64,000 nucleotides of DNA, taken from contig JABLTJ010000006.1 in NCBI GenBank assembly GCA_013166775.1, positions 59,983-123,982 on the forward strand, given 5' to 3'. Below the pieces are notes generated by a model. That model did no database searches, was not told the DNA's origin, and worked only from the letters and a program-made list of their open reading frames with translations. This DNA comes from Promethearchaeati archaeon (GTDB lineage: Archaea; Asgardarchaeota; Heimdallarchaeia; Heimdallarchaeales; Heimdallarchaeaceae). The position numbers and the translations under genes are program-made. Positions within the stretch are counted from its first letter, which is position 1; every line of letters starts with the position of its first letter. Positions 10,287-19,935 of this stretch are shown piece by piece.

Positions 10287-11138
10287 TCATTCAATTAACA
10301 TTGTTAAATCGAAGTTTTTTACAGAATGAGTTAATGATCCTGAGGATATTAAATCTACACCTTCTAATGAGTACATATCTAGATTATTTAGATTGATATT
10401 CCCACTTAACTCAATTGATATATTAGAATTGACTTCTCTTATTTTTGGGATGATAATTTTAGCTTGATCTGGAGTAAAATTATCAAGCATCACTATATCC
10501 GCACCAGCTTTAACTGCTTCTAAAGCCTCTTCCTCATTCTGAACCTCAACTTCTATTTTCTTACTGAAACTAGTTCTTTCCTTCGCTTTCTCTATTGCTT
10601 TTGTTATTGATTCAAACATTCTAAGATGATTTTCTTTTAGTAAAATCATATCTGAAAGATTAAATCTATGAGTGTCCCCCCCACCTACAGTAACTGCAAA
10701 TTTATCATATTTACTAAGCCCAGGAACAATCTTCCTTGTTGCACAAATTCTGATAGTTGAATTTACAGATTGAGCTTTTTCGAGCATAATTGCAGTTTGA
10801 GTAGCGATTCCTGACATTCTGCCAAGAAGATTCAGAGCTAAACGTTCTGCTTGAAGTAAAGAATGTATATTCCCCTTAACTGAAGCTATTTGAGTCTTCT
10901 TAGATACATGTTGTCCATCTCCAACCGTTATTTCATACTCTGCTCCCATGAGCTCAAAAATCCTTTTCGCTATGAGAGTTCCTGCTATTACTCCCTCTTG
11001 TTTAGAATAAATTTTTCCTTTAACATTTTTCTGCGGCAGAAGAGCAGTTGTTATATCCCAATAAGAGATATCTTCAGAAAGCCAGTTTTTTATGTCCTCA
11101 TCTAGTAATAGTTGTGGAATCATGTTCAATTTCCCCAC
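10287..11138 (-). CDS. nadC: Quinolinate phosphoribosyltransferase (nicotinate-nucleotide diphosphorylase)
   Basis: ERLALN, SGIAT, TRK, HRFNLSDMILLKENH, EVEV, MLDNF, SG. Confidence 0.96.
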   Translation of the reverse strand: MGKLNMIPQLLLDEDIKNWLSEDISYWDITTALLPQKNVKGKIYSKQEGVIAGTLIAKRIFELMGAEYEITVGDGQHVSKKTQIASVKGNIHSLLQAERLALNLLGRMSGIATQTAIMLEKAQSVNSTIRICATRKIVPGLSKYDKFAVTVGGGDTHRFNLSDMILLKENHLRMFESITKAIEKAKERTSFSKKIEVEVQNEEEALEAVKAGADIVMLDNFTPDQAKIIIPKIREVNSNISIELSGNINLNNLDMYSLEGVDLISSGSLTHSVKNFDLTMLIE

Positions 11139-11141
11139 TTT

Positions 11142-12170
11142 TTAGTATTTTAGCATATTGTTTACAGCTTTGTAAGCTTTTAATCTAACTTCTTTATCTA
11201 ATTCAATTATGTGTTCAGAAGTTGGATTTTCTATAGCTTTTAGTGTTGTGTAAAGGTCATTACTCTTCATACTTACACAGATCATGTGACTATCTTGAAA
11301 ATTTAGGTGAGGATATTCAACTTTCATTCTATCTATGAATCCTTGCTCCGTAAGAAATAGAATCTTGTGGCCATTCTTCGATTCTTTAGCATATCTATGC
11401 ATATCTCCAGTCCCCCCTACTAAATCAACTCTACTAATAATTTCAGGTCTGCATTCAAGATGAGCAAAAGTTTTCACTTCTGAATCTTTGAAAATTTTAT
11501 CAAACCTTCTTTCAGTAAAAGCATGATGAGTTCGGCAGAATCCCTTCTCCCATGTAATGATTTTCTTTCCAGTAATCTTAGCTAAGTTTACTCCCATGTT
11601 ATGATCAGGAACAAAAATTATTGTTTCATCTTCAAGTTGTTCAATAATTTTTTTTGCATTAGCAGAGGTGCAACAGATATCTGATTCTGCTTTAACTTCT
11701 GCAGTAGTATTAACATAACAAACAACTGGAGCTCCTGGATATCGTTCTTTCAAAGCTTTAACATCTTCCCCTGTAATAGAATCTGCTAAAGTACAATCTC
11801 TACCTTTGAGAGGAACATAAACAGTTTTTTCAGGATTAAGGATTTTAACTGTTTCAGCCATGAAATCAACACCACAGAACATGATTGTATCTTCTTCGAT
11901 TTCTGTAGCTATTTTTGCTAATCCTAATGAATCACCCACTATATCAGCAATTCCAAAAATGATTTCTGGTGATTGATAAGAATGAGCTAAGATTTTAATT
12001 CCTTTCTCTTTCTTCAACGTATTAATTCGTAGCGTGAAAGGTGCTAGTTGTTCACATACTTCCCTTGTCCAGCCCAGCTTACTTAGTTTAGAATAAAGAC
12101 GCTCGATTTCATTATTCAGCTTTTGTTGATCCTGAGCTGGGATTTGTGGTGCGTCTTCTACTATAACCAT
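11142..12170 (-). CDS. nadA: Quinolinate synthase A
   Basis: AHSYQ, GDSL, FCGVDFMAE, YVNT, TSAN, AHLEC and three cluster Cys (DCTL, FCRTH, ICVSM). 3 bp from nadC. Confidence 0.95.
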   Translation of the reverse strand: MVIVEDAPQIPAQDQQKLNNEIERLYSKLSKLGWTREVCEQLAPFTLRINTLKKEKGIKILAHSYQSPEIIFGIADIVGDSLGLAKIATEIEEDTIMFCGVDFMAETVKILNPEKTVYVPLKGRDCTLADSITGEDVKALKERYPGAPVVCYVNTTAEVKAESDICCTSANAKKIIEQLEDETIIFVPDHNMGVNLAKITGKKIITWEKGFCRTHHAFTERRFDKIFKDSEVKTFAHLECRPEIISRVDLVGGTGDMHRYAKESKNGHKILFLTEQGFIDRMKVEYPHLNFQDSHMICVSMKSNDLYTTLKAIENPTSEHIIELDKEVRLKAYKAVNNMLKY

Positions 12171-12372
12171 TACAATCGGGATGGTTTTTGTTGTGAAGTA
12201 TTTAAAGAATGTTCGTTTAAGGTAAAAATTGAATGAAGATTAAATCAATATTTCTTTTAAGGCTCTGAAATGTGCGAATCCGATACTTACTATGAATAAA
12301 TGAAGCAAATTTTGCCCATATTTTCCTTCTAAATCTCCACATTTTCTCTTTAGAACTCCCCTAAGTGAATTT

Positions 12373-12391
12373 TATGTATTGACAATACATA
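12373..12391. promoter_or_regulatory. Perfect inverted repeat TATGTATTG-A-CAATACATA, candidate operator
   Basis: 9-bp arms around a 1-bp centre, in the nadA / NADK-HTH divergent intergenic region. Confidence 0.55.
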
Positions 12392-12435
12392 TTTTTAAAA
12401 CCTAATGAAAAAATGATTTTTTTACTAAATTTTAA

Positions 12436-12469
12436 GCGAGAATTGGTACTCGCCAAATACTATTTAAAT
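12436..12469 (+). promoter_or_regulatory. GCGAG-N8-CTCGC inverted repeat just upstream of a TATA-like box (TATTTAAAT)
   Basis: GC-rich IR at 12436-12453 in an AT-rich background. TATA-like element at 12461-12469, about 40-50 bp before the start of the NADK-HTH gene. Confidence 0.4.
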
Positions 12470-12507
12470 GAATTAACAGTAATATTTTTTTAGTAAAGAA
12501 ACACAGA

Positions 12508-13563
12508 GTGGAAGAAATGAAGATCGCTTTGTATGTAACTGAAGGTAAAAACTACGTTGAGTTTTCTGATACTATCAAAGAGATTATTCAAGAGTTAGCT
12601 CCCGAAACAGAAATAATACCATTAAGAGATAAAGAGTTAAATCAGGAAAACTGGCAGAGTGAACTAAAAGATTTTTCACTTAATAATGCTGATTTAGTTA
12701 TAACTGTTGGAGATGCAGGAACTTTTCTTCGAGCAATCTTTTTGAGTAGAAAGTCCATTCCTGTAGTAGCTGCTTCCTCTGAAAGGTTGAGTTTCTTTAC
12801 AGAAATAGCTCCAAACAATTTAAGAGAAAATCTTAACTTGATATTGAACAATAGATTCTTTATTGATGATTATAATAGAGTTGAAATTCAAGGAGTTTTC
12901 AATAAAATTCCAATACCTGCATTAAATGAAATTGCCATTTTTCCGAGAGATTCAGCGTTGCTCATGAATTACACTATTGTAGTGGATAACAATGTTCTCT
13001 ACAGAGGACGAGCTGATGGGATTATTATTTCAACAGCTCTTGGAAGTACCGGATATGCTCTTTCATCCGGAGGTCCCATAGCTTTCGGTAATCCAAATAT
13101 TTTAATCGCTGTTCCTGTTAATCCATTGAACAAAGAACATATCCCACTTGTGGTTCCTTTGGAATCTGAGATTAAAATTGTTAACATGAGATCAAGATCA
13201 CCAATAGAAGCAGTCATTGATGGACAAATTCGATTGAAACTGGAAGAAGAAGTACTCATTAAGCAAGCAAGAACCGATGTGAAAATATTAAGGTTTCAAT
13301 CAAGAAAAAATATTCTAGCAAAACTAAGAAATAGATTAGTTGAACTAGATTTGCGCCATTTAGAAGGGGTACCTCCTTCTGCAAAATATATTTTTAAACT
13401 GCTATTGACAGAAGGAGAAATGACACAAAAAGAACTTATAGAAAGTACGGGTTTGCCAAATAGAACTGTGAGAAACGCTTTGAATATCTTAAAAGAGAAG
13501 GGAGTTATTAGTCAAAGACCACATTTAAGAGATGCGAGACAATCGATTTATTTCGCTTCATAA
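12508..13563 (+). CDS. NAD-kinase-fold protein fused to a C-terminal winged HTH (MarR-like); putative regulator
   Basis: ALNE, DGIIISTALGSTGYALSSGGP and IDGQ NADK motifs. GGDGT is replaced by GDAGT. C-terminal PPSAKYIFKLL...MTQKELIESTGLPNRTVRNAL...RDARQSIY is an archaeal wHTH. Start is GTG 12508 or ATG 12517. Confidence 0.88.
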   Translation: MEEMKIALYVTEGKNYVEFSDTIKEIIQELAPETEIIPLRDKELNQENWQSELKDFSLNNADLVITVGDAGTFLRAIFLSRKSIPVVAASSERLSFFTEIAPNNLRENLNLILNNRFFIDDYNRVEIQGVFNKIPIPALNEIAIFPRDSALLMNYTIVVDNNVLYRGRADGIIISTALGSTGYALSSGGPIAFGNPNILIAVPVNPLNKEHIPLVVPLESEIKIVNMRSRSPIEAVIDGQIRLKLEEEVLIKQARTDVKILRFQSRKNILAKLRNRLVELDLRHLEGVPPSAKYIFKLLLTEGEMTQKELIESTGLPNRTVRNALNILKEKGVISQRPHLRDARQSIYFAS

Positions 13564-13800: not shown

Positions 13801-16800
13801 ATGTCAAGAAAAAAGCAGATTATTACTTTTACAGCATTATGTCTTATACTTTTGAATTTTTCAATGGTATATACTCAAGGTCAGATTGTTGGTGACCAAA
13901 CAGAAAGAATGTCTTTTACAAATCCTGGTGATTTTTTGCCAAAACGTATAGCAATTCTTTATGATCCTATAAATCCAAACACAATCGAAACTGCAAGAGC
14001 AATTTATGAGACAATTAAATATCTGTACTCAAATGTACAGATGATAGCTGTTTATACTCCCGATATGTTATATGATACATTCAAAGATGAGTATTGGATT
14101 CGTATTTATGTTTTCGATACTGATCTTACTGGTCTGGAAACAGCGGGAGGGACTATTCAATGGAGAAAAATAGGTCGATATTATGAGACCTATGAAAAAA
14201 CACACCATATTGCAGTATATGGAAATGCATACAAAGTTGCAAAAATGGTTTCTAGTCCAAACTGTTATTTTGAAGAAAAGGAAAAAATGGATGTTCGAAC
14301 TGGTTTTCTTCATGCAATTTGGTCTCTATCAACGATTTTTTTGAGTCATAAAAAAGAAATCTATAAAGAGATTGGTGCAAATTTCCAAAAAGTAGCAATT
14401 CAATACTTTGCATCAGAATTTGAAGCATTAACTTTAGCTGAATTTGATCCACAATATAGTTTGGGTGAAGAAGATCCCATTGAATCAGAGAAAAGAATTG
14501 CCAATTTTAAAGAAACGCATCCAGATCAATTAGCAAAAATCCATCCAGAAACAGGAGAGTTTATAGAACCTACAGCGGAGATTCCAGGTTTTGATCCAGC
14601 TCTCAATCTAAAAACTATGGTAAAAGCTCAAGAAGATAATGATATCATACTAACAGAATTTCCATTTCTATCCTCTCTTACTGGAGCTGCTGGGGATGTC
14701 ATTCAATTGTTATTGGAATTGATAGGAGCAGATATTCCTGATGGAGTTATTACGGTTGGACAAGAATTTGCGAATTCGATTAAAACTATAGTTGAGGAAA
14801 TACCCAAGATTATCGGGCTTATAAAGGATCCTAGTGCTAGTAGTGCATTAGAATTGTTCTTTGATATTTTAAAATCTGCTTTTCCATCTTTAGAAAAATA
14901 CAAACCTTATTTTGATATTGCATCAAAAGCTATCTTTGCAATACAAGAAGGTCCTGCAGGTATTTTGGGATTAATGGATGATTTACTATTATTTTTGATT
15001 CCTGAAAGCGCTACAGGTTTTGTAACTGATATTGTTAATATGTTAAATCTCACTACTGAATTTTACGATGGTCTACTTGAAGCAGAAAAATGGTCAGACT
15101 ACTTGATGAAACACCTGAATAAGCAACTAATATATCAAATAATCTGGAAAGTTGCTAATCTAGTAGGTGGTGCTCTAAATAATACAAACACAGTAGATAC
15201 AATAACTGAAATGTTTGTTATAGGAATTGAAATAATCTCAACCAGAAATTATACCTCAGTCGTTAGAGACATAATTCCATATCTGGGCATGAAGATTCTG
15301 GGTGTATCAGATGATGATACAGCAACACTATTTGAAATTCTTGGCATCCTATTGCAAATGGGATTAGGAGCTGCAGGTGTACTCGAGGTAGATTTTGATG
15401 ACAGTGCTCAAGATTTATTCGCAGCGTTGTTCCCAGATGTTGATTTCACACTGCAGGATGGAAAGGAAGCAATTCAAGATCTGATAGATGTAACGAAACA
15501 AATGGTTGAGGGAGAAATAACTGATTATACTACAATTAGAAGTAACGTTGTTACTGTTATAGATGCAGTAGATACTTTGTCTTCGTTTGATTTATCTGCA
15601 TCAAGAACAAATGTTATCGCAGAATGCATCACACTAGCTTACAAACTTCTTCAGAACGATTTTCAAATACCTAGTGAATTGGATTTTATCTCTTTGATTA
15701 CTGATATTATAAATGAATTTTATCCTTCAATGGATGCAGATAAAAAACAATTGATCAGTAAAGCACTTGAACTTGCATCTTCTCTAGTTGCTTTTGTAAC
15801 TGATTCTGATAGTGCAAAGATTTTTATTAAAGGTTCAATTAATGATTTTATATCTGATATTGGAGAAAATCCCGGGGAATTGGTTAAATCTGTTCTTGGT
15901 GTAGTAATCCCATTAATTTCAGGAGAAACTCCAGATCAATCAATTCTTGATGGAGTTGGAACAGTTGTTTCTACTATTGTAGATATGCTTTCAGGGGGAT
16001 TCGATTTCTCAATACAAAATATATTACAAACAGTGGTTAGTATAGCAGGTGTAGGTTTATCCTTATTGGATCCAGATATACCAATGAACATCGTTACAGA
16101 TATCTTCAATTTATTCTGGTCTGATAAGCCAGAATTCAATGATGTAGCAAAGGTTGTTGAAGATATTATTACAATCATTCAACCTTCAGTTTCTCCAACA
16201 GTTTTGAATATAGTAGAAGTTGTCCTTGTTTTTATTGGATCAGCTAAAGGAATTTTCAAGGACGGAACAAAATGGATAATGAACCAACTAGTAGGATGGG
16301 TATCAGGAAAGATTGCAGATCTACTTAATATGCTTACTAGTAAATTAAATGATTTGATAATGAATATTGGTTCATTTCTTAGTTTCTCTGCAAACTTTAC
16401 TGTAGGTTTCGGTAGTTTTTCAGCTTTTTATATGAGTGTATTCTTTAAACTTTCACCAGGTTTTTCAATTAACAAAGAAGCAGTAATCGATTTAGTAAAT
16501 GATCTAGTCTTCCATGGTTCAACATTGCTTAGTTCGGGTAATCTTGGATATCTGTTTAAGAAAATACTGAGCGCAATATCAATAATACCACTTTTAGAAG
16601 CAGGATTAGAGGTTAGCTCAGGAACTACGGGTAAAGATAGTTTGACAAATAAATTGTTGGATAAACTAGGAGTTGAGCTTGCGTTTTCTGGTTCTGCAGG
16701 AGTGAAGCTGCAACTTATGAAAATAGAAAATGGAAAGATAAGTACAAGTGATTTTTTGAAATTAATAGAATTCTTCTTTAAATTTGAAATCTCTCTATCG

Positions 16801-19800
16801 AAGACATTTCCACTTGCGGAATTCTTTTTTGGTCCTGCAGTATCAGTGTTAGCAAAGGTTGCTGAACATTTAGGATTGGGAGGAATATATCTAGAAATTA
16901 CTTTCTTTATTTCAATAGAAATTGTGAAAAGGATAGATACGAAGTTCCAAAGCGCTGCTGAAATCTTAACGATTGTAATAGGTCTTACGGTAGCAATAAT
17001 CATAGATCTCTCTCTAGTGATAGTAGGAATCACGATAACGTTTGGCTTTACAGTGACGTTAAGTTTTATACAAGATTTCTTAGCTGGGTCACCGCTACAA
17101 GTTGTTTTGGTGATAGTTATTTTCATTTCAGTAAAAATTGTATTCCTATTCTGGGATTGGAGTAAAACCATTGAATTTGGTCCAGATCCAATATATCTAG
17201 CGGGAGGAAAGGATGACCCAGAGACGCGGGAGGAGATGACGGGATTGGATGAAGATGGAGATGGATTACCAGATTCTTATGAAGAAGAGATTCCAGGCTT
17301 GAAATTAGACTCTGACGATTCAGATGGTGATGGATTATCGGATAAATTCGAAATTAGAAATAGTGGAACAGATCCAATAGTTAATGACACTGATGGGGAT
17401 AGACTTCTTGATGGATATGAGTACCAAGTTCTTCGAACCAATCCTTTGCAGTGTGATAGTGATTTTGATGGATTAACTGACTACGAAGAAGTAGTAATTT
17501 ATGGAACAGATCCAAATTCAATAGACACAGATGGAGATCAATTAGATGATTATTACGAAGTAAATACTGCGTGGAATATCACAGGAATAAAAAGAAGCGT
17601 TCCATTTGTAATGATTGGAGGAGTAATGTATATTGATCATACAGATCCTCTAAATCCAGACACAGATGGTGATGGAATTCTAGATGGTCAAGAAGGACCT
17701 TTCGGTGCATATTATGGTCCTGATTTGTATGATGATGAAGATGATTCCTATTACCCAGATCAACCTCCAATTATATATAATGAAGGATATATTCATCCTC
17801 TAGATAATGACACAGATGATGATAGTTATCGGCAATTATGTAATGGAACTATTGCTCCAGGGAACATGTTTTTAATCCCTATGACTGATAAAATTGAGAT
17901 AGATGGACAATGGGTGATATTCATCGAGGATGATGAATTAATTCCAAGACTAGTAAGAACCAATCCAGTCAATCCTGACACAGATGGTGATACTGGAATA
18001 GACCCTTCATGGAGAGGAGATGCAGCTCCTATCAATATATTTCTAAAATCTGATGGATATGAATTGTGGTTAGACCCACCAACAGATCCTAATGATGCAG
18101 ATACTGATGATGATGGCTTGATTGATGGTTTTGAAGGATGGGGAAATCCAACTGGAAATCATACTGATCCAAATAATGCGGATACCGACAATGATGGATT
18201 AGGTGATCTTCAAGATATCTTACTTGGATGTGATCCTTTGGATCCCGATTCAGACGGAGATGGTGTTCTGGACGGAGAAGAATTCTTCAAATATGGTACA
18301 AATCCTGCATATGAAGATACAGATCATGATGGTTTACTCGATGGAGAAGAACTATATCTCTTCCATACAAATCCTCTTGCAGTTGATTCTGATGGTGATG
18401 GAATTGAAGATGGTTTAGAGGTTCTATATTATGACACTAATCCAATGGATGAAGATGAAGATAATGATGGATTAACAGATTGGGAAGAAATCTTCTATCA
18501 TGGAACACTACCAAAGGTCTACGATTCAGATGGGGATGGATTGAGTGATTGGGAAGAAGTAGCTGTCTATTATACACATCCTCTCAAATGGGATACAGAT
18601 AATGATACAATATGGTATCCTAATGAAGTTGGAGAAATGACCTTCCCAATGTCCGATGGAGATGAAATCAAAGTATTTGGAACAAATCCTCTATCATCAG
18701 ATTCAGATGTTGATGGTATTTACGATTGTTTAGAATTATATTTGGGTTCAGGACTTATACCAGATTTCGCACCAATTCTACTTGATCCTATGTCTAATGA
18801 TACAGATGGAGATGGGTTGCTAGATGCTCACGAATTAGTAGTTGCAAATGTAACTAATATTATCTATCCTTACAGAAGTTTTCTTTTTACAACTCCGTAT
18901 AATACTTCAGTCGTTAACCCAGATACAGACGGTGATGGTCTACTAGATGGAGATGAAGTTCTTGTTTATGGAACTCTTGCAAATACTACAGATTCTGATG
19001 GTGATGGAATAGATGATGGTAATGAAATATTTGCAACATTCACTAATCCACTAACTTCAGATACGGATGGAGACGCATTAACTGATTATGAAGAAATTTG
19101 GGGATATCCTGAATACGCTTTGGATCCGATGAATCCTGATGTTGATGGTGATATGCTTCCTGATGGTGCAGAAATACTCCTGTATGGTACCAATCCAAAT
19201 AATCCAGATGAGGATGATAACGGAGTTTTGGATGGTCTCGAGACGGACTTTGATTTTGATGGCTTAGAAGATGGTTATGAATTCTTTGTATATAAAACTC
19301 CAATGGTAGCAGGCGGAGGCGTTACACAACCGGATAGTGATAGAGATGGTCTGGGAGATGGAGCAGAAGTGTATCTTTATGGTACTAACTGTACTCTTTG
19401 GGATACTGATAATGATACCTTCTCTGATGGTTTGGAAGTTATGGTTGGGACTGATCCTCTGACTTTTACAACGCTTGAAGAATTCCGTGATGCTATTCAA
19501 GCTTTTGAGAGAGGTGTAGTAGTTGTATCACCTGTTCAAGGAGGAATTTACTCACCTTCAAACTTTACATTCATTATCTATAATGCTTCACCAGTTCTAG
19601 ATGTTACTTATCAAATGAGAAAAGGAAGCGACGATTTCAGTGATAATGTATCTATGCATTTCTCTATGGAAACAAGTACATGGATGAGTACGGGAGATTA
19701 TATCAGCAGTGGAGATTATGAAGTTAAATTCTACGTCCATCATCCAGATGATACGTATACAGTTGTAACTAGAACCTTCGTTGTTGAAGGGACGGCAGTT

Positions 19801-19935
19801 GTTTCATATGCGTGGGTAATAGCAGGGGTTGGAGGAGGAATCGCTACGGGAGTAGCTGGTACGGCTATATTCTATTTAGCTCGAGCAGGAAAATTGTCAT
19901 TCCTGAAGAGGTTGTTTGGAGGTGGTGGATCATGA
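13801..19935 (+). CDS. Giant (2044 aa) cell-surface protein: signal peptide, helical rod, hydrophobic beta region, Ca-binding DxDxDG (thrombospondin type 3-like) repeats, Ig-like domain, C-terminal TM
   Basis: N-terminal hydrophobic leader, more than 20 D-[TS]-D-x-D-G-L-x-D...T-[DN]-P repeats, and a Gly-rich TM near the C-terminus. Confidence 0.85.
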   Translation: MSRKKQIITFTALCLILLNFSMVYTQGQIVGDQTERMSFTNPGDFLPKRIAILYDPINPNTIETARAIYETIKYLYSNVQMIAVYTPDMLYDTFKDEYWIRIYVFDTDLTGLETAGGTIQWRKIGRYYETYEKTHHIAVYGNAYKVAKMVSSPNCYFEEKEKMDVRTGFLHAIWSLSTIFLSHKKEIYKEIGANFQKVAIQYFASEFEALTLAEFDPQYSLGEEDPIESEKRIANFKETHPDQLAKIHPETGEFIEPTAEIPGFDPALNLKTMVKAQEDNDIILTEFPFLSSLTGAAGDVIQLLLELIGADIPDGVITVGQEFANSIKTIVEEIPKIIGLIKDPSASSALELFFDILKSAFPSLEKYKPYFDIASKAIFAIQEGPAGILGLMDDLLLFLIPESATGFVTDIVNMLNLTTEFYDGLLEAEKWSDYLMKHLNKQLIYQIIWKVANLVGGALNNTNTVDTITEMFVIGIEIISTRNYTSVVRDIIPYLGMKILGVSDDDTATLFEILGILLQMGLGAAGVLEVDFDDSAQDLFAALFPDVDFTLQDGKEAIQDLIDVTKQMVEGEITDYTTIRSNVVTVIDAVDTLSSFDLSASRTNVIAECITLAYKLLQNDFQIPSELDFISLITDIINEFYPSMDADKKQLISKALELASSLVAFVTDSDSAKIFIKGSINDFISDIGENPGELVKSVLGVVIPLISGETPDQSILDGVGTVVSTIVDMLSGGFDFSIQNILQTVVSIAGVGLSLLDPDIPMNIVTDIFNLFWSDKPEFNDVAKVVEDIITIIQPSVSPTVLNIVEVVLVFIGSAKGIFKDGTKWIMNQLVGWVSGKIADLLNMLTSKLNDLIMNIGSFLSFSANFTVGFGSFSAFYMSVFFKLSPGFSINKEAVIDLVNDLVFHGSTLLSSGNLGYLFKKILSAISIIPLLEAGLEVSSGTTGKDSLTNKLLDKLGVELAFSGSAGVKLQLMKIENGKISTSDFLKLIEFFFKFEISLSKTFPLAEFFFGPAVSVLAKVAEHLGLGGIYLEITFFISIEIVKRIDTKFQSAAEILTIVIGLTVAIIIDLSLVIVGITITFGFTVTLSFIQDFLAGSPLQVVLVIVIFISVKIVFLFWDWSKTIEFGPDPIYLAGGKDDPETREEMTGLDEDGDGLPDSYEEEIPGLKLDSDDSDGDGLSDKFEIRNSGTDPIVNDTDGDRLLDGYEYQVLRTNPLQCDSDFDGLTDYEEVVIYGTDPNSIDTDGDQLDDYYEVNTAWNITGIKRSVPFVMIGGVMYIDHTDPLNPDTDGDGILDGQEGPFGAYYGPDLYDDEDDSYYPDQPPIIYNEGYIHPLDNDTDDDSYRQLCNGTIAPGNMFLIPMTDKIEIDGQWVIFIEDDELIPRLVRTNPVNPDTDGDTGIDPSWRGDAAPINIFLKSDGYELWLDPPTDPNDADTDDDGLIDGFEGWGNPTGNHTDPNNADTDNDGLGDLQDILLGCDPLDPDSDGDGVLDGEEFFKYGTNPAYEDTDHDGLLDGEELYLFHTNPLAVDSDGDGIEDGLEVLYYDTNPMDEDEDNDGLTDWEEIFYHGTLPKVYDSDGDGLSDWEEVAVYYTHPLKWDTDNDTIWYPNEVGEMTFPMSDGDEIKVFGTNPLSSDSDVDGIYDCLELYLGSGLIPDFAPILLDPMSNDTDGDGLLDAHELVVANVTNIIYPYRSFLFTTPYNTSVVNPDTDGDGLLDGDEVLVYGTLANTTDSDGDGIDDGNEIFATFTNPLTSDTDGDALTDYEEIWGYPEYALDPMNPDVDGDMLPDGAEILLYGTNPNNPDEDDNGVLDGLETDFDFDGLEDGYEFFVYKTPMVAGGGVTQPDSDRDGLGDGAEVYLYGTNCTLWDTDNDTFSDGLEVMVGTDPLTFTTLEEFRDAIQAFERGVVVVSPVQGGIYSPSNFTFIIYNASPVLDVTYQMRKGSDDFSDNVSMHFSMETSTWMSTGDYISSGDYEVKFYVHHPDDTYTVVTRTFVVEGTAVVSYAWVIAGVGGGIATGVAGTAIFYLARAGKLSFLKRLFGGGGS
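17245..19465 (+). repeat. Tandem DxDxDG/T[DN]P acidic Ca-binding repeats within the 2044-aa protein
   Basis: For example DSDGDGLSD, DTDGDRLLD, DTDHDGLLD, with roughly 23-24 aa periodicity in the dense stretches. Confidence 0.85.

What the first reader, a model, noticed from the sequence alone, without database searches (positions are those of the whole stretch)
10287..13563. NAD-kinase/wHTH fusion with a broken catalytic motif faces nadA-nadC: candidate NAD(P)-sensing transcription factor
Seen: the 351-aa protein keeps the dinucleotide-binding NADK motifs (NE; DG-x-x-x-ST-x-x-GSTGYxLSxGGP; DG). The GGDGT catalytic motif reads GDAGT (12709-12723) and the GxxG-x-LGF loop reads SSERLSFF. It ends in a complete archaeal winged HTH (from about 13372) and is transcribed divergently from de novo NAD genes nadA-nadC. 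Established: the GGDGT Asp is essential for NAD kinase catalysis. Known NAD regulators (NadR, NiaR, NrtR, NadQ) use other sensor domains, and several of them (NadR, NrtR) are repurposed enzyme folds. Inference: a pseudo-kinase used as an NAD/NADP sensor that controls quinolinate-pathway genes. I recall a similar architecture in Nitrososphaerota annotations (unverified) but know of no functional study.
Basis: partly seen in the sequence, partly recalled or inferred. Interest (0 to 1): 0.82.

Follow-up and report, generated by a model that had tools for sequence, protein, structure and literature searches.

The report
NAD-kinase-derived regulator of NAD synthesis
A Heimdall-group Asgard archaeon carries a spare, catalytically disabled copy of NAD kinase joined to a DNA-binding domain, and comparison across three archaeal lineages indicates it is a switch, not found in the papers searched, for the genes that make or import the precursors of the coenzyme NAD.

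Summary
The gene at 12508/12517-13563 encodes a full NAD-kinase fold plus a C-terminal winged helix. GGDGT reads GDAGT, so the catalytic Asp is lost, and the second kinase motif is degenerate. The NAD-binding motifs are kept, and a canonical NAD kinase lies elsewhere in the genome.

- The fusion ("NKR") is divergent from nadA in 25 of 26 Heimdallarchaeaceae loci and in 28 of 28 Thorarchaeia loci.
- A 13-bp palindrome, GGCAA-N3-TTGCC (window 12304-12316), sits between the two genes.
- In Nitrososphaeria the regulator gene is unlinked to nadA. All 26 sampled nadA promoters of NKR-carrying genomes have the palindrome at a fixed position. None of 4 NKR-lacking genomes does.
- In Nitrososphaeria where nadA was not found, NKR sits beside a NiaP-like transporter preceded by tandem palindromes.

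Refinements:
- The window's obvious 19-bp palindrome (12373-12391) belongs to a different regulon (pgk, gap, gdh).
- DPANN members of the family keep intact kinase motifs.
- The sign of regulation and the ligand are not resolved.

The same family was noted earlier by this scan on other genomes. No paper describing it was found.

The parts
10287..11138 (-). nadC, quinolinate phosphoribosyltransferase. Second gene of the nadA-nadC operon.
   Evidence: TIGR00078 scores 316.5 bits against a cut-off of 198; Pfam QRPTase_N and QRPTase_C also match.
11142..12170 (-). nadA, quinolinate synthase. Proposed regulated target.
   Evidence: PF02445 scores 320.9 bits and NF006878 scores 319 bits against a cut-off of 294.
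12198..12237 (-). Conserved nadA core promoter block. The TATA box TTTAAAT (12200-12207, read on the minus strand) lies 29 nt before the ATG, followed by a conserved upstream stretch.
   Evidence: Invariant columns in the alignment of 20 orthologous spacers (A2).
12304..12316 (.). Proposed NKR operator: 13-bp palindrome AGCAAATTTTGCC. The family consensus is AAGCAA-N3-TTGCCTAT and the cross-phylum consensus is GGCAA-N3-TTGCC.
   Evidence: It is the only match with at most 1 mismatch in the 64-kb window. It is conserved in the orthologous spacers. The same palindrome lies at nadA in Thorarchaeia and Nitrososphaeria.
12373..12391 (.). Perfect 19-bp palindrome TATGTATTGACAATACATA (type TAYGTAT-N5-ATAYRTA). 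Probably the operator of a second, Heimdallarchaeaceae-specific regulator rather than of NKR.
   Evidence: It is conserved in the spacers. The same motif lies upstream of pgk, gap, gdh and a small wHTH gene in this genome and in other genera.
12462..12469 (+). TATA-like box TATTTAAA of the regulator gene, 47 nt before ATG 12517.
   Evidence: Read directly from the sequence. Orthologues have TATAAATAAT at the aligned place. The promoter assignment is inferred.
12517..13563 (+). NKR: NAD-kinase-fold sensor domain plus C-terminal winged helix, 348 aa. The alternative GTG start at 12508 gives 351 aa.
   Evidence: Pfam matches. AlphaFold2 model with mean pLDDT 86.6. Foldseek top hits are NAD kinases with E about 1e-23 and TM-score up to 0.85.
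12709..12723 (+). Degenerate motif I, GDAGT in place of GGDGT. The catalytic Asp position is Ala.
   Evidence: HMMER alignments to 1Z0S, 1SUW and 2AN1 and the family alignment.
12775..12798 (+). Degenerate motif II, SSERLSFF in place of NxGxLGFL.
13042..13077 (+). Conserved dinucleotide-binding motif GSTGYALSSGGP. It also lies at the predicted dimer interface.
   Evidence: Invariant G, S, Y, S, G and P columns in the family alignment. Interface residues.
13372..13560 (+). Winged helix-turn-helix with family-wide signature PPSAK..MTQKEL..LPxRTVRxAL..RDARQxIY.
   Evidence: Pfam HTH_24 above its cut-off. Three helices and a two-strand wing in the model. Conserved across three lineages.

Best explanation
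The gene encodes a transcription factor, here called NKR, built from a duplicated NAD kinase. In this clade the kinase has lost its phosphoryl-transfer motifs but keeps the pocket that binds the NAD dinucleotide, and it is fused to a C-terminal winged helix. NKR most likely forms a dimer through the NAD-kinase C-terminal domain. The dimer would bind the palindrome GGCAA-N3-TTGCC (window 12304-12316) in the spacer it shares with nadA-nadC, and would couple transcription of the quinolinate-to-NaMN genes to the cell's pyridine-nucleotide pool, probably along with its own transcription. In other archaea the same regulator and site control an unlinked nadA or a NiaP-like precursor transporter. Shown by computation: the fold, the motif loss, the spare canonical kinase, the recurrent linkage and the association between site and regulator. 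Inferred: DNA binding itself, the ligand (NAD+/NADH or NADP(H)), and the sign of regulation. The site lies upstream of the TATA boxes, which fits an activator that leaves DNA when the ligand is abundant slightly better than a co-repressed repressor.
For: Fold and motifs:
- The protein has an NADK N-domain, an NADK C-domain and a wHTH.
- The model has mean pLDDT 86.6 and its best PDB matches are all NAD kinases.
- The catalytic Asp of GGDGT is replaced in all 36 full-length Heimdall members, motif II is degenerate, and the NAD-binding motifs are invariant.
- All NCBIfam NADK equivalog scores are far below their cut-offs, for example 148.7 against 326.

Spare enzyme: a canonical 284-aa NADK lies on contig C51. 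The four other genomes tested each have a second NADK-like locus, with a GGDGT NADK in three of them.

Linkage:
- In Heimdallarchaeia the fusion was found only in one family (26 of 31 genomes there, 0 of 52 in the other families).
- nadA is divergent from the fusion in 22 of 26 loci, lies about 1 kb upstream in G004, and sits with the palindrome at a contig end in two more (25 in all).
- Thorarchaeia: 28 of 28 loci with upstream DNA have a divergent nadA.

Operator:
- The palindrome is conserved while its 3-bp spacer varies.
- The Heimdall pattern gives 31 hits against 1 for the reversed control.
- Thorarchaeia: 24 exact and 4 one-mismatch sites, with a second site 29 bp nearer nadA in 21 loci.
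- Nitrosopumilus G084: the only exact match in 2.6 Mb is upstream of the unlinked nadA.
- Nitrososphaeria sample: 26 of 26 NKR+ nadA promoters carry the site (21 exact), 37-38 nt before a conserved TATA. In 4 of 4 NKR- genomes the best matches have 2-4 mismatches at scattered places.
- In a divergent Nitrososphaeria NKR clade (nadA not found in five of the seven genomes concerned), NKR adjoins a PF00083/AAHS-type MFS transporter in 7 loci. In the 6 with upstream DNA the palindrome lies upstream of the transporter, with a second copy or half-site about 30 bp nearer. NiaP, the known niacin transporter, is of that type (PMC2330245).

Dimer: the homodimer model scores 0.43 against a best control of 0.00. 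That mark was reached by 20 of 30 proteins solved as pairs and by 1 of 23 solved as single chains. The runs agree in at least 88% of contacts and the partner's pLDDT is at least 82. The interface covers residues 156-217 and includes the GSTGY..GGP motif. The pass may reflect memory of solved NADK dimers.
Against: - No experiment of any kind exists: DNA binding, ligand and loss of kinase activity are all inferred.
- In this genome the site lies about 96 nt from the nadA TATA and about 145 nt from the regulator's own TATA. That is far for a direct steric mechanism, and only one site is present here, unlike the tandem sites of Thorarchaeia.
- Related genomes are not independent, so the 26/0-of-4 contrast overstates the statistics.
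- Nitrososphaeria members keep the Asp (GGDRG), and about 15 DPANN clusters keep full kinase motifs, so residual or full activity exists somewhere in the family.
- No site was found near the nadB-like or nadE genes of this genome.
- A second conserved palindrome shares the spacer, so another factor also acts there.
Confidence: 0.75

Rival explanations
1. Bifunctional enzyme-regulator, as in RbkR or NadR: the protein is still an active NAD kinase and also binds DNA, with the GDAGT Asp, shifted by one position, taking over catalysis.
For: An Asp sits one position earlier in GDAGT. DPANN members of the family keep FGGDGT/S and NCGxxG(F/Y/H)L, so a bifunctional state probably exists in the family. 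RbkR shows that archaeal kinase/wHTH fusions can be active enzymes (PMC5397151).
Against: Close orthologues read GGTGT, GSTGT or GHTGT and have no Asp at either position. Motif II is also lost. NCBIfam scores are less than half of every NADK cut-off. A canonical NADK is present in this genome and in the three other carriers where one could be read.
Confidence: 0.06
2. NKR is a regulator of NAD-supply genes but senses something other than NAD(P)(H). Candidates are a pathway intermediate (NaAD, NMN, NaMN, quinolinate), ADP-ribose, or ATP/polyphosphate.
For: Known NAD regulators use varied effectors: NiaR uses niacin and NrtR uses ADP-ribose (PMC2330245, PMC2330246). The altered motif I/II region lines the donor side of the pocket and could have gained a new specificity.
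Against: The residues kept invariant are those that hold the NAD substrate in solved kinases. The donor-side motifs are the ones that decayed and vary between clades, which argues against a conserved new ligand there.
Confidence: 0.15
3. NKR is a Rex-like redox regulator of central metabolism. Its operator would be the 19-bp palindrome TAYGTAT-N5-ATAYRTA, found before pgk, gap, gdh and in the nadA/NKR spacer, and NAD synthesis would be a side target.
For: The 19-bp motif occurs at 4 further places in this genome with PWM score of 19 or more, against 0.17 hits (both strands) expected per simulated genome. All 4 lie before NAD(P)-linked or glycolytic genes. Like NKR, the motif is largely confined to this family, in 27 of 30 genomes.
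Against: The motif has a better candidate factor. A stand-alone 99-aa wHTH, paralogous to the NKR wHTH (35% identity, E 3e-13), carries the motif in its own upstream region in this genome and five others. Nothing like this motif accompanies NKR in Thorarchaeia or Nitrososphaeria, where the 13-bp palindrome does. The recognition helix LPxRTVRxAL is conserved across lineages, which predicts one shared site type.
Confidence: 0.07

Closest known systems
NAD kinase NadK/PpnK (EC 2.7.1.23), e.g. A. fulgidus 1SUW/1Z0S and M. tuberculosis 1U0T
   Same: Same two-domain fold (Foldseek E about 1e-23, TM-score up to 0.85), same NAD-binding motifs, and the same predicted dimer interface through the C-terminal domain.
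   Different: The catalytic GGDGT Asp and the NxGxLGFL motif are lost. A 70-residue wHTH is appended. The protein scores far below every curated NADK cut-off, and a true NADK is encoded elsewhere.
RbkR, the archaeal riboflavin kinase/wHTH regulator (Rodionova et al. 2017, PMC5397151)
   Same: An archaeal cofactor-pathway kinase fused to a MarR-like wHTH. It controls the biosynthesis and transport genes of the same cofactor through palindromic, sometimes tandem, operators, and was found by the same comparative logic.
   Different: RbkR has an N-terminal wHTH and is usually the only, active kinase. NKR has a C-terminal wHTH and an unrelated kinase fold, and in Asgard archaea and Nitrososphaeria it is a degenerate extra copy.
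NrtR, NiaR, NadR and NadQ: bacterial regulators of NAD metabolism (PMC2330246, PMC2330245)
   Same: Same regulatory task, with overlapping targets (nadA, nadC, NiaP-type transporters). NrtR and NadR likewise reuse an enzyme fold as the sensor.
   Different: The sensor folds differ (Nudix, 3H, NMNAT/RNK). All are bacterial. None shows sequence similarity to NKR in the Pfam or NCBIfam scans.
Rex, the bacterial NADH/NAD+ redox-sensing repressor
   Same: A wHTH joined to a dinucleotide-binding domain that dimerises. The ligand state is thought to set DNA affinity.
   Different: Rex has an N-terminal wHTH with a Rossmann fold and a regulon of fermentation and respiration genes (from general knowledge, not tested here). 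The NKR sites found here are at NAD-supply genes.

Membership tests
NAD kinase (NadK/PpnK, EC 2.7.1.23) | Two-domain NAD kinase fold | tested here: met
   Pfam PF01513 and PF20143 score above their cut-offs. Foldseek top hits are all NADKs with TM-score 0.7-0.85.
NAD kinase (NadK/PpnK, EC 2.7.1.23) | GGDGT motif with the catalytic Asp | tested here: not met
   The motif reads GDAGT, and the Asp column is Ala or Thr in all Heimdall orthologues.
NAD kinase (NadK/PpnK, EC 2.7.1.23) | Motif II, NxGxLGFL | tested here: not met
   The motif reads SSERLSFF.
NAD kinase (NadK/PpnK, EC 2.7.1.23) | NAD-binding motifs (NE, DG..ST..GSTAY..SAGGP, DG) | tested here: met
   These are invariant columns in alignments A1 and A3.
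NAD kinase (NadK/PpnK, EC 2.7.1.23) | Score above a curated equivalog cut-off | tested here: not met
   The best score is 148.7 bits against a cut-off of 326 (NF002984), and all 18 NADK models are below their cut-offs.
NAD kinase (NadK/PpnK, EC 2.7.1.23) | Kinase activity | not testable with these tools
   This needs an enzyme assay.
MarR/TrmB-like winged-helix transcription factors | wHTH domain: three helices plus a beta-hairpin wing | tested here: met
   HTH_24 scores 25.9 bits against a cut-off of 21.9. The model has helices 287-299, 304-311 and 315-328 and strands 331-335 and 343-347.
MarR/TrmB-like winged-helix transcription factors | Palindromic operator associated with the factor across genomes | tested here: met
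   GGCAA-N3-TTGCC is found at nadA or the MFS genes only in sampled genomes that carry NKR. Binding itself was not tested.
NrtR / NiaR / NadR / NadQ (known NAD regulators) | Their sensor domains (Nudix, 3H, NMNAT plus RNK, NadQ domain) | tested here: not met
   No such Pfam or NCBIfam match at E up to 0.1.
RbkR-type bifunctional kinase/regulators | CTP-dependent riboflavin kinase domain with an N-terminal wHTH, usually the only kinase copy | tested here: not met
   The kinase fold is different, the wHTH is C-terminal, and a separate active-type kinase is present. The resemblance is functional only.

The most novel reading that the evidence does not exclude
NKR is the founding member of an undescribed archaeal transcription-factor family, with about 84 clusters at 50% identity across Asgard archaea, Nitrososphaerota and DPANN. 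The family began as a bifunctional NAD kinase/regulator, a state still seen in Micrarchaeota and Diapherotrites. After duplication of the kinase it became a pure NAD(P)-pool sensor. It would act as a ligand-released activator of de novo NAD synthesis and niacin uptake, which would make it the first NAD regulon described in Archaea.
Probability: 0.5. Interest if true: 0.85.

Novelty: new variant of a known kind. Interest (0 to 1): 0.8.

Why it matters
In the papers searched here, transcriptional control of NAD synthesis is described for Bacteria (NadR, NiaR, NrtR); I found no archaeal NAD regulator. This family would fill that gap for Asgard archaea and for the globally abundant ammonia-oxidising Nitrososphaeria. 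It also corrects a widespread annotation, "NAD(+)/NADH kinase", that would mislead metabolic reconstructions by counting a regulator as an enzyme.

It is a clean natural case of an enzyme turning into a sensor. Apparently bifunctional forms (DPANN), partly decayed forms (Nitrososphaeria, GGDRG) and fully decayed forms (Heimdall, GDAGT/GGTGT) all survive, so the path can be studied.

The predicted operator is short, nearly invariant across phyla and directly testable. Nitrosopumilus maritimus offers a cultivable carrier. The NAD-kinase-fold sensor could also serve as a starting point for pyridine-nucleotide biosensors.

Tried and rejected
Gene neighbourhoods were obtained through the genome search, the search for related loci and the fetch from genomes instead.
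- The single genome-contig scan with the fusion alignment was swamped by canonical NADKs, because the pattern was drawn from the GSTAY motif. Only 4 of its 80 loci were fusions.
- I first took the 19-bp palindrome (12373-12391) for the NKR site. I rejected this after finding it before pgk, gap, gdh and a small wHTH gene, and not in Thorarchaeia or Nitrososphaeria.
- Other exact genomic matches to GGCAA-N3-TTGCC in five genomes lie inside ORFs and match the chance expectation of about one per genome. Most extra matches to the Heimdall pattern are likewise in coding sequence.
- No site with fewer than 2 mismatches lies near the nadB-like or nadE genes, and no aspartate dehydrogenase was found; the genome is 88.7% complete.
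- Apparent in-frame TGA codons in relatives' canonical NADK matches are simply read-through past the stop codon.
- Cluster look-ups gave few organism names for the mid-distance clade.
- Five literature searches found no description of an NADK/wHTH regulator.
Full report
**What is in the window.** The region holds nadC (10287-11138, minus strand), nadA (11142-12170, minus strand), a 337-bp spacer and a plus-strand ORF at 12508-13563. nadA and nadC pass the curated Pfam and NCBIfam cut-offs. The ORF carries the Pfam NAD_kinase N-terminal and C-terminal domains and a C-terminal wHTH (HTH_24, above its cut-off). It reaches less than half of the cut-off of each of the 18 NCBIfam NAD-kinase models.

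HMMER alignments to solved kinases place VGDAGT under VGGDGT and AASSERLSFFT under GINTGRVGLLT. The NE, DG..ST..GSTGYALSSGGP and DG motifs are kept. Orthologues are 348 aa and begin MKIA, so ATG 12517 is the more likely start.

An AlphaFold2 model built with 42 family sequences has mean pLDDT 86.6. It shows an NADK body, a long linker helix and a three-helix, two-strand winged helix. Its best PDB matches are all NAD kinases (E about 1e-23, TM-score up to 0.85).

**The genome has a real NAD kinase elsewhere.** The assembly (3.85 Mb, 115 contigs, 88.7% complete) holds four NADK-like loci:
- this fusion;
- a canonical 284-aa enzyme on contig C51, with FGGDGT and NCGRVGFLTE intact;
- two 371/373-aa paralogues with GGDGTARD.

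Source names of close homologues place the organism in Heimdallarchaeaceae.

**Family and motif decay.** A 90%-clustered search returned about 71 fusions. One group is a Heimdall clade at 55-90% identity. A second group, at 33-41% identity, includes Thorarchaeota and Nitrososphaerota.
- None of these fusions has a canonical GGDGT. Heimdall members read G[DGSH][TA]GT and Nitrososphaeria read GGD[RK]G.
- All the unfused kinases in the same list have GGDG[TSA].
- The wHTH signature PPSAK..MTQKEL..LPxRTVRxAL..RDARQxIY is shared by all clades, which argues for one origin and one type of DNA site.

An exhaustive profile search of 1.84 billion representatives found 84 clusters at 50% identity that carry the wHTH. 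Of these, 64 lack GGDG and 20 keep it. About 15 of those 20 keep a full FGGDGT/S and an NCGxxG(F/Y/H)L motif. The named ones are Micrarchaeota and Diapherotrites. So the family probably started as a bifunctional kinase/regulator, and the window's clade is a decayed, sensor-only form. Whether the DPANN genomes lack another NADK was not tested.

**Linkage to nad genes.**
- *Heimdallarchaeia.* Among 83 genomes, the full-length fusion occurs in 26 of 31 genomes of one family and in none of 52 genomes of six other families, which have only the canonical kinase.
- *Arrangement in those 26 loci.* nadA, usually followed by nadC, lies divergently upstream in 22. It lies about 1 kb away in one more. In two others nadA-nadC with the same palindrome sits at a contig end.
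- *Thorarchaeia.* In a sample of 51 genomes, 34 have the fusion. All 28 loci with upstream DNA have a divergent nadA.
- *Nitrosopumilales.* The regulator gene is not next to nad genes there.

**The operator.** Aligning 20 orthologous spacers shows three conserved blocks:
- the nadA TATA region (12198-12237);
- AAGCAA-N3-TTGCCTAT (12304-12316 in the window);
- TTTAYGTAT-N5-ATAYRTAT (12373-12391).

The second block is the one that travels with the regulator.
- *Thorarchaeia.* The Thor spacer has GGCAACATTTGCC. Across Thorarchaeia, 24 loci have an exact GGCAA-N3-TTGCC and 4 have one mismatch. In 21 loci a second copy lies exactly 29 bp nearer nadA.
- *Nitrosopumilus.* In Nitrosopumilus G084 the only exact occurrence in 2.6 Mb is upstream of the unlinked nadA.
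- *Nitrososphaeria sample of 71 genomes.* 39 have NKR, 36 have nadA and 31 have both. All 26 NKR+ nadA promoters examined carry the palindrome (21 exact, 5 with one mismatch). Its arms are conserved, its spacer varies, and it lies 37-38 nt before a conserved CTTTAAAT box. The four NKR- nadA promoters have only 2-4-mismatch matches at scattered positions.
- *Heimdall family.* GCAANNNTTGCCTAT gives 31 hits against 1 for the reversed control.

Related genomes are not independent, so these counts overstate the statistics. The pattern nevertheless recurs in three deeply separated lineages and in both linked and unlinked arrangements.

**A second target class.** In a divergent Nitrososphaeria NKR clade, the regulator adjoins a PF00083 MFS transporter in seven loci; nadA was not found in five of the seven genomes, one has it, and one is a 1.3-Mb MAG. 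The transporter's best NCBIfam matches are the aromatic-acid/H+ symporter family and PcaK. In the six loci with upstream DNA the palindrome lies upstream of the transporter, and a second copy or half-site lies about 30 bp nearer in each. In one further locus NKR adjoins an isochorismatase-family (PncA-like) gene. The experimentally supported niacin transporter NiaP is described as exactly this kind of MFS protein, most similar to PcaK and BenK, and it is a recurrent member of bacterial NAD regulons (PMC2330245). Orthology to NiaP was not tested here.

**Mechanism.**
- *Dimer.* A homodimer model with NAD riding along scored 0.43 against a best control of 0.00. That mark was reached by 20 of 30 proteins solved as pairs and by 1 of 23 solved as single chains. 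The runs agree in at least 88% of contacts and the partner's pLDDT is at least 82. The interface covers residues 156-217, including the GSTGY..GGP motif. Solved NADK dimers exist, so this pass may be memory. It fits a two-fold site, and a ligand pocket next to the dimer interface could transmit occupancy to the DNA-binding domains.
- *Sign of regulation.* This is open. In Nitrososphaeria the site centre is about 50 bp upstream of the TATA centre. In Thorarchaeia one copy abuts each divergent promoter. In this window the single site is about 96 nt from the nadA TATA and about 145 nt from the regulator's TATA. Sites upstream of BRE/TATA usually mean activation in archaea, and sites abutting BRE can mean repression. 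I lean slightly towards a ligand-released activator.

**The other palindrome.** A position weight matrix of the 19-bp motif finds four further sites in this genome scoring 19 or more, against 0.17 hits (both strands) expected per simulated genome from third-order Markov simulations. They lie 14-69 bp before pgk, gap and gdh, and between a 99-aa wHTH gene and a DUF4199/NADK-like pair.

The motif is enriched in this family (27 of 30 genomes) and rare elsewhere in the class. It recurs before pgk (6 loci), gap (2) and the small wHTH gene (5) in other genera. The small protein is a paralogue of the NKR winged helix (35% identity, E 3e-13) and is the natural candidate factor. The spacer therefore probably integrates two regulators.

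**Prior knowledge.** Five full-text searches found no NADK/wHTH regulator. The nearest analogue is RbkR (PMC5397151). This scan had already noted the same family on other genomes. Here I re-derived and tested its palindrome claim independently and extended it with four points: the tandem sites in Thorarchaeia, the NiaP-like targets, the DPANN forms with intact motifs, and the separation of the two operators in this window.

Noticed in passing
window 12373-12391; G000 C94:65499-65520, C97:176863-176885, C103:4594-4615, C27:16689-16710: A Heimdallarchaeaceae-specific palindrome TAYGTAT-N5-ATAYRTA lies just upstream of pgk, gap, gdh and a small wHTH gene. It is conserved across genera, which suggests a central-carbon regulon. 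The likely factor is the 99-aa wHTH (P0121), a paralogue of the NKR DNA-binding domain.
   Followed up: partly
G000 C103:75975-75987 and 76097-76109 (L136 3975-3987, 4097-4109): Two copies of the extended NKR-type palindrome ATAGG(C/T)AAAATTTGCCTAT lie 122 bp apart in an intergenic region. Nearby are a 78-aa ORF, a DUF1295 membrane protein and a glutaredoxin-like gene. Intergenic sites near a similar glutaredoxin-like gene or a family of small ORFs (about 145 aa, no Pfam match) occur in three other genomes of the genus. This may be an extra NKR target of unknown function.
   Followed up: partly
L193, L195, L196, L199, L200, L201, L042 (Nitrososphaeria): A divergent NKR clade sits beside an AAHS-type MFS transporter (NiaP-like). 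In the six loci with upstream DNA, the palindrome lies before the transporter with a second copy or half-site about 30 bp nearer. nadA was not found in five of these seven genomes, which suggests niacin-dependent lineages.
   Followed up: partly
P0161, P0167, P0182, P0189-P0192, P0195, P0199, P0204-P0206, P0208, P0220, P0226, P0235: These NADK/wHTH fusions have intact FGGDGT/S and NCGxxG(F/Y/H)L motifs. The named ones are Micrarchaeota and Diapherotrites. They are probably bifunctional kinase/regulators.
   Followed up: partly
window 13801-19935: A 2044-aa predicted surface protein lies directly downstream. It has a long run of DxDxDG (thrombospondin-type-3-like) calcium-binding repeats and a C-terminal membrane anchor. 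Its N-terminal part is a conserved neighbour of NKR in several genera.
   Followed up: no
G000 C51:38267-39382 and C27:17342-18463 (L003 805-1920, L004 802-1923): Two further NADK-superfamily paralogues of 371 and 373 aa carry GGDGTARD. The C27 copy lies downstream of the small wHTH gene and the 19-bp palindrome.
   Followed up: no
window 12508 vs 12517: The GTG start of the listed ORF is probably wrong. Orthologues start at the ATG nine bases later (MKIA..., 348 aa).
   Followed up: yes
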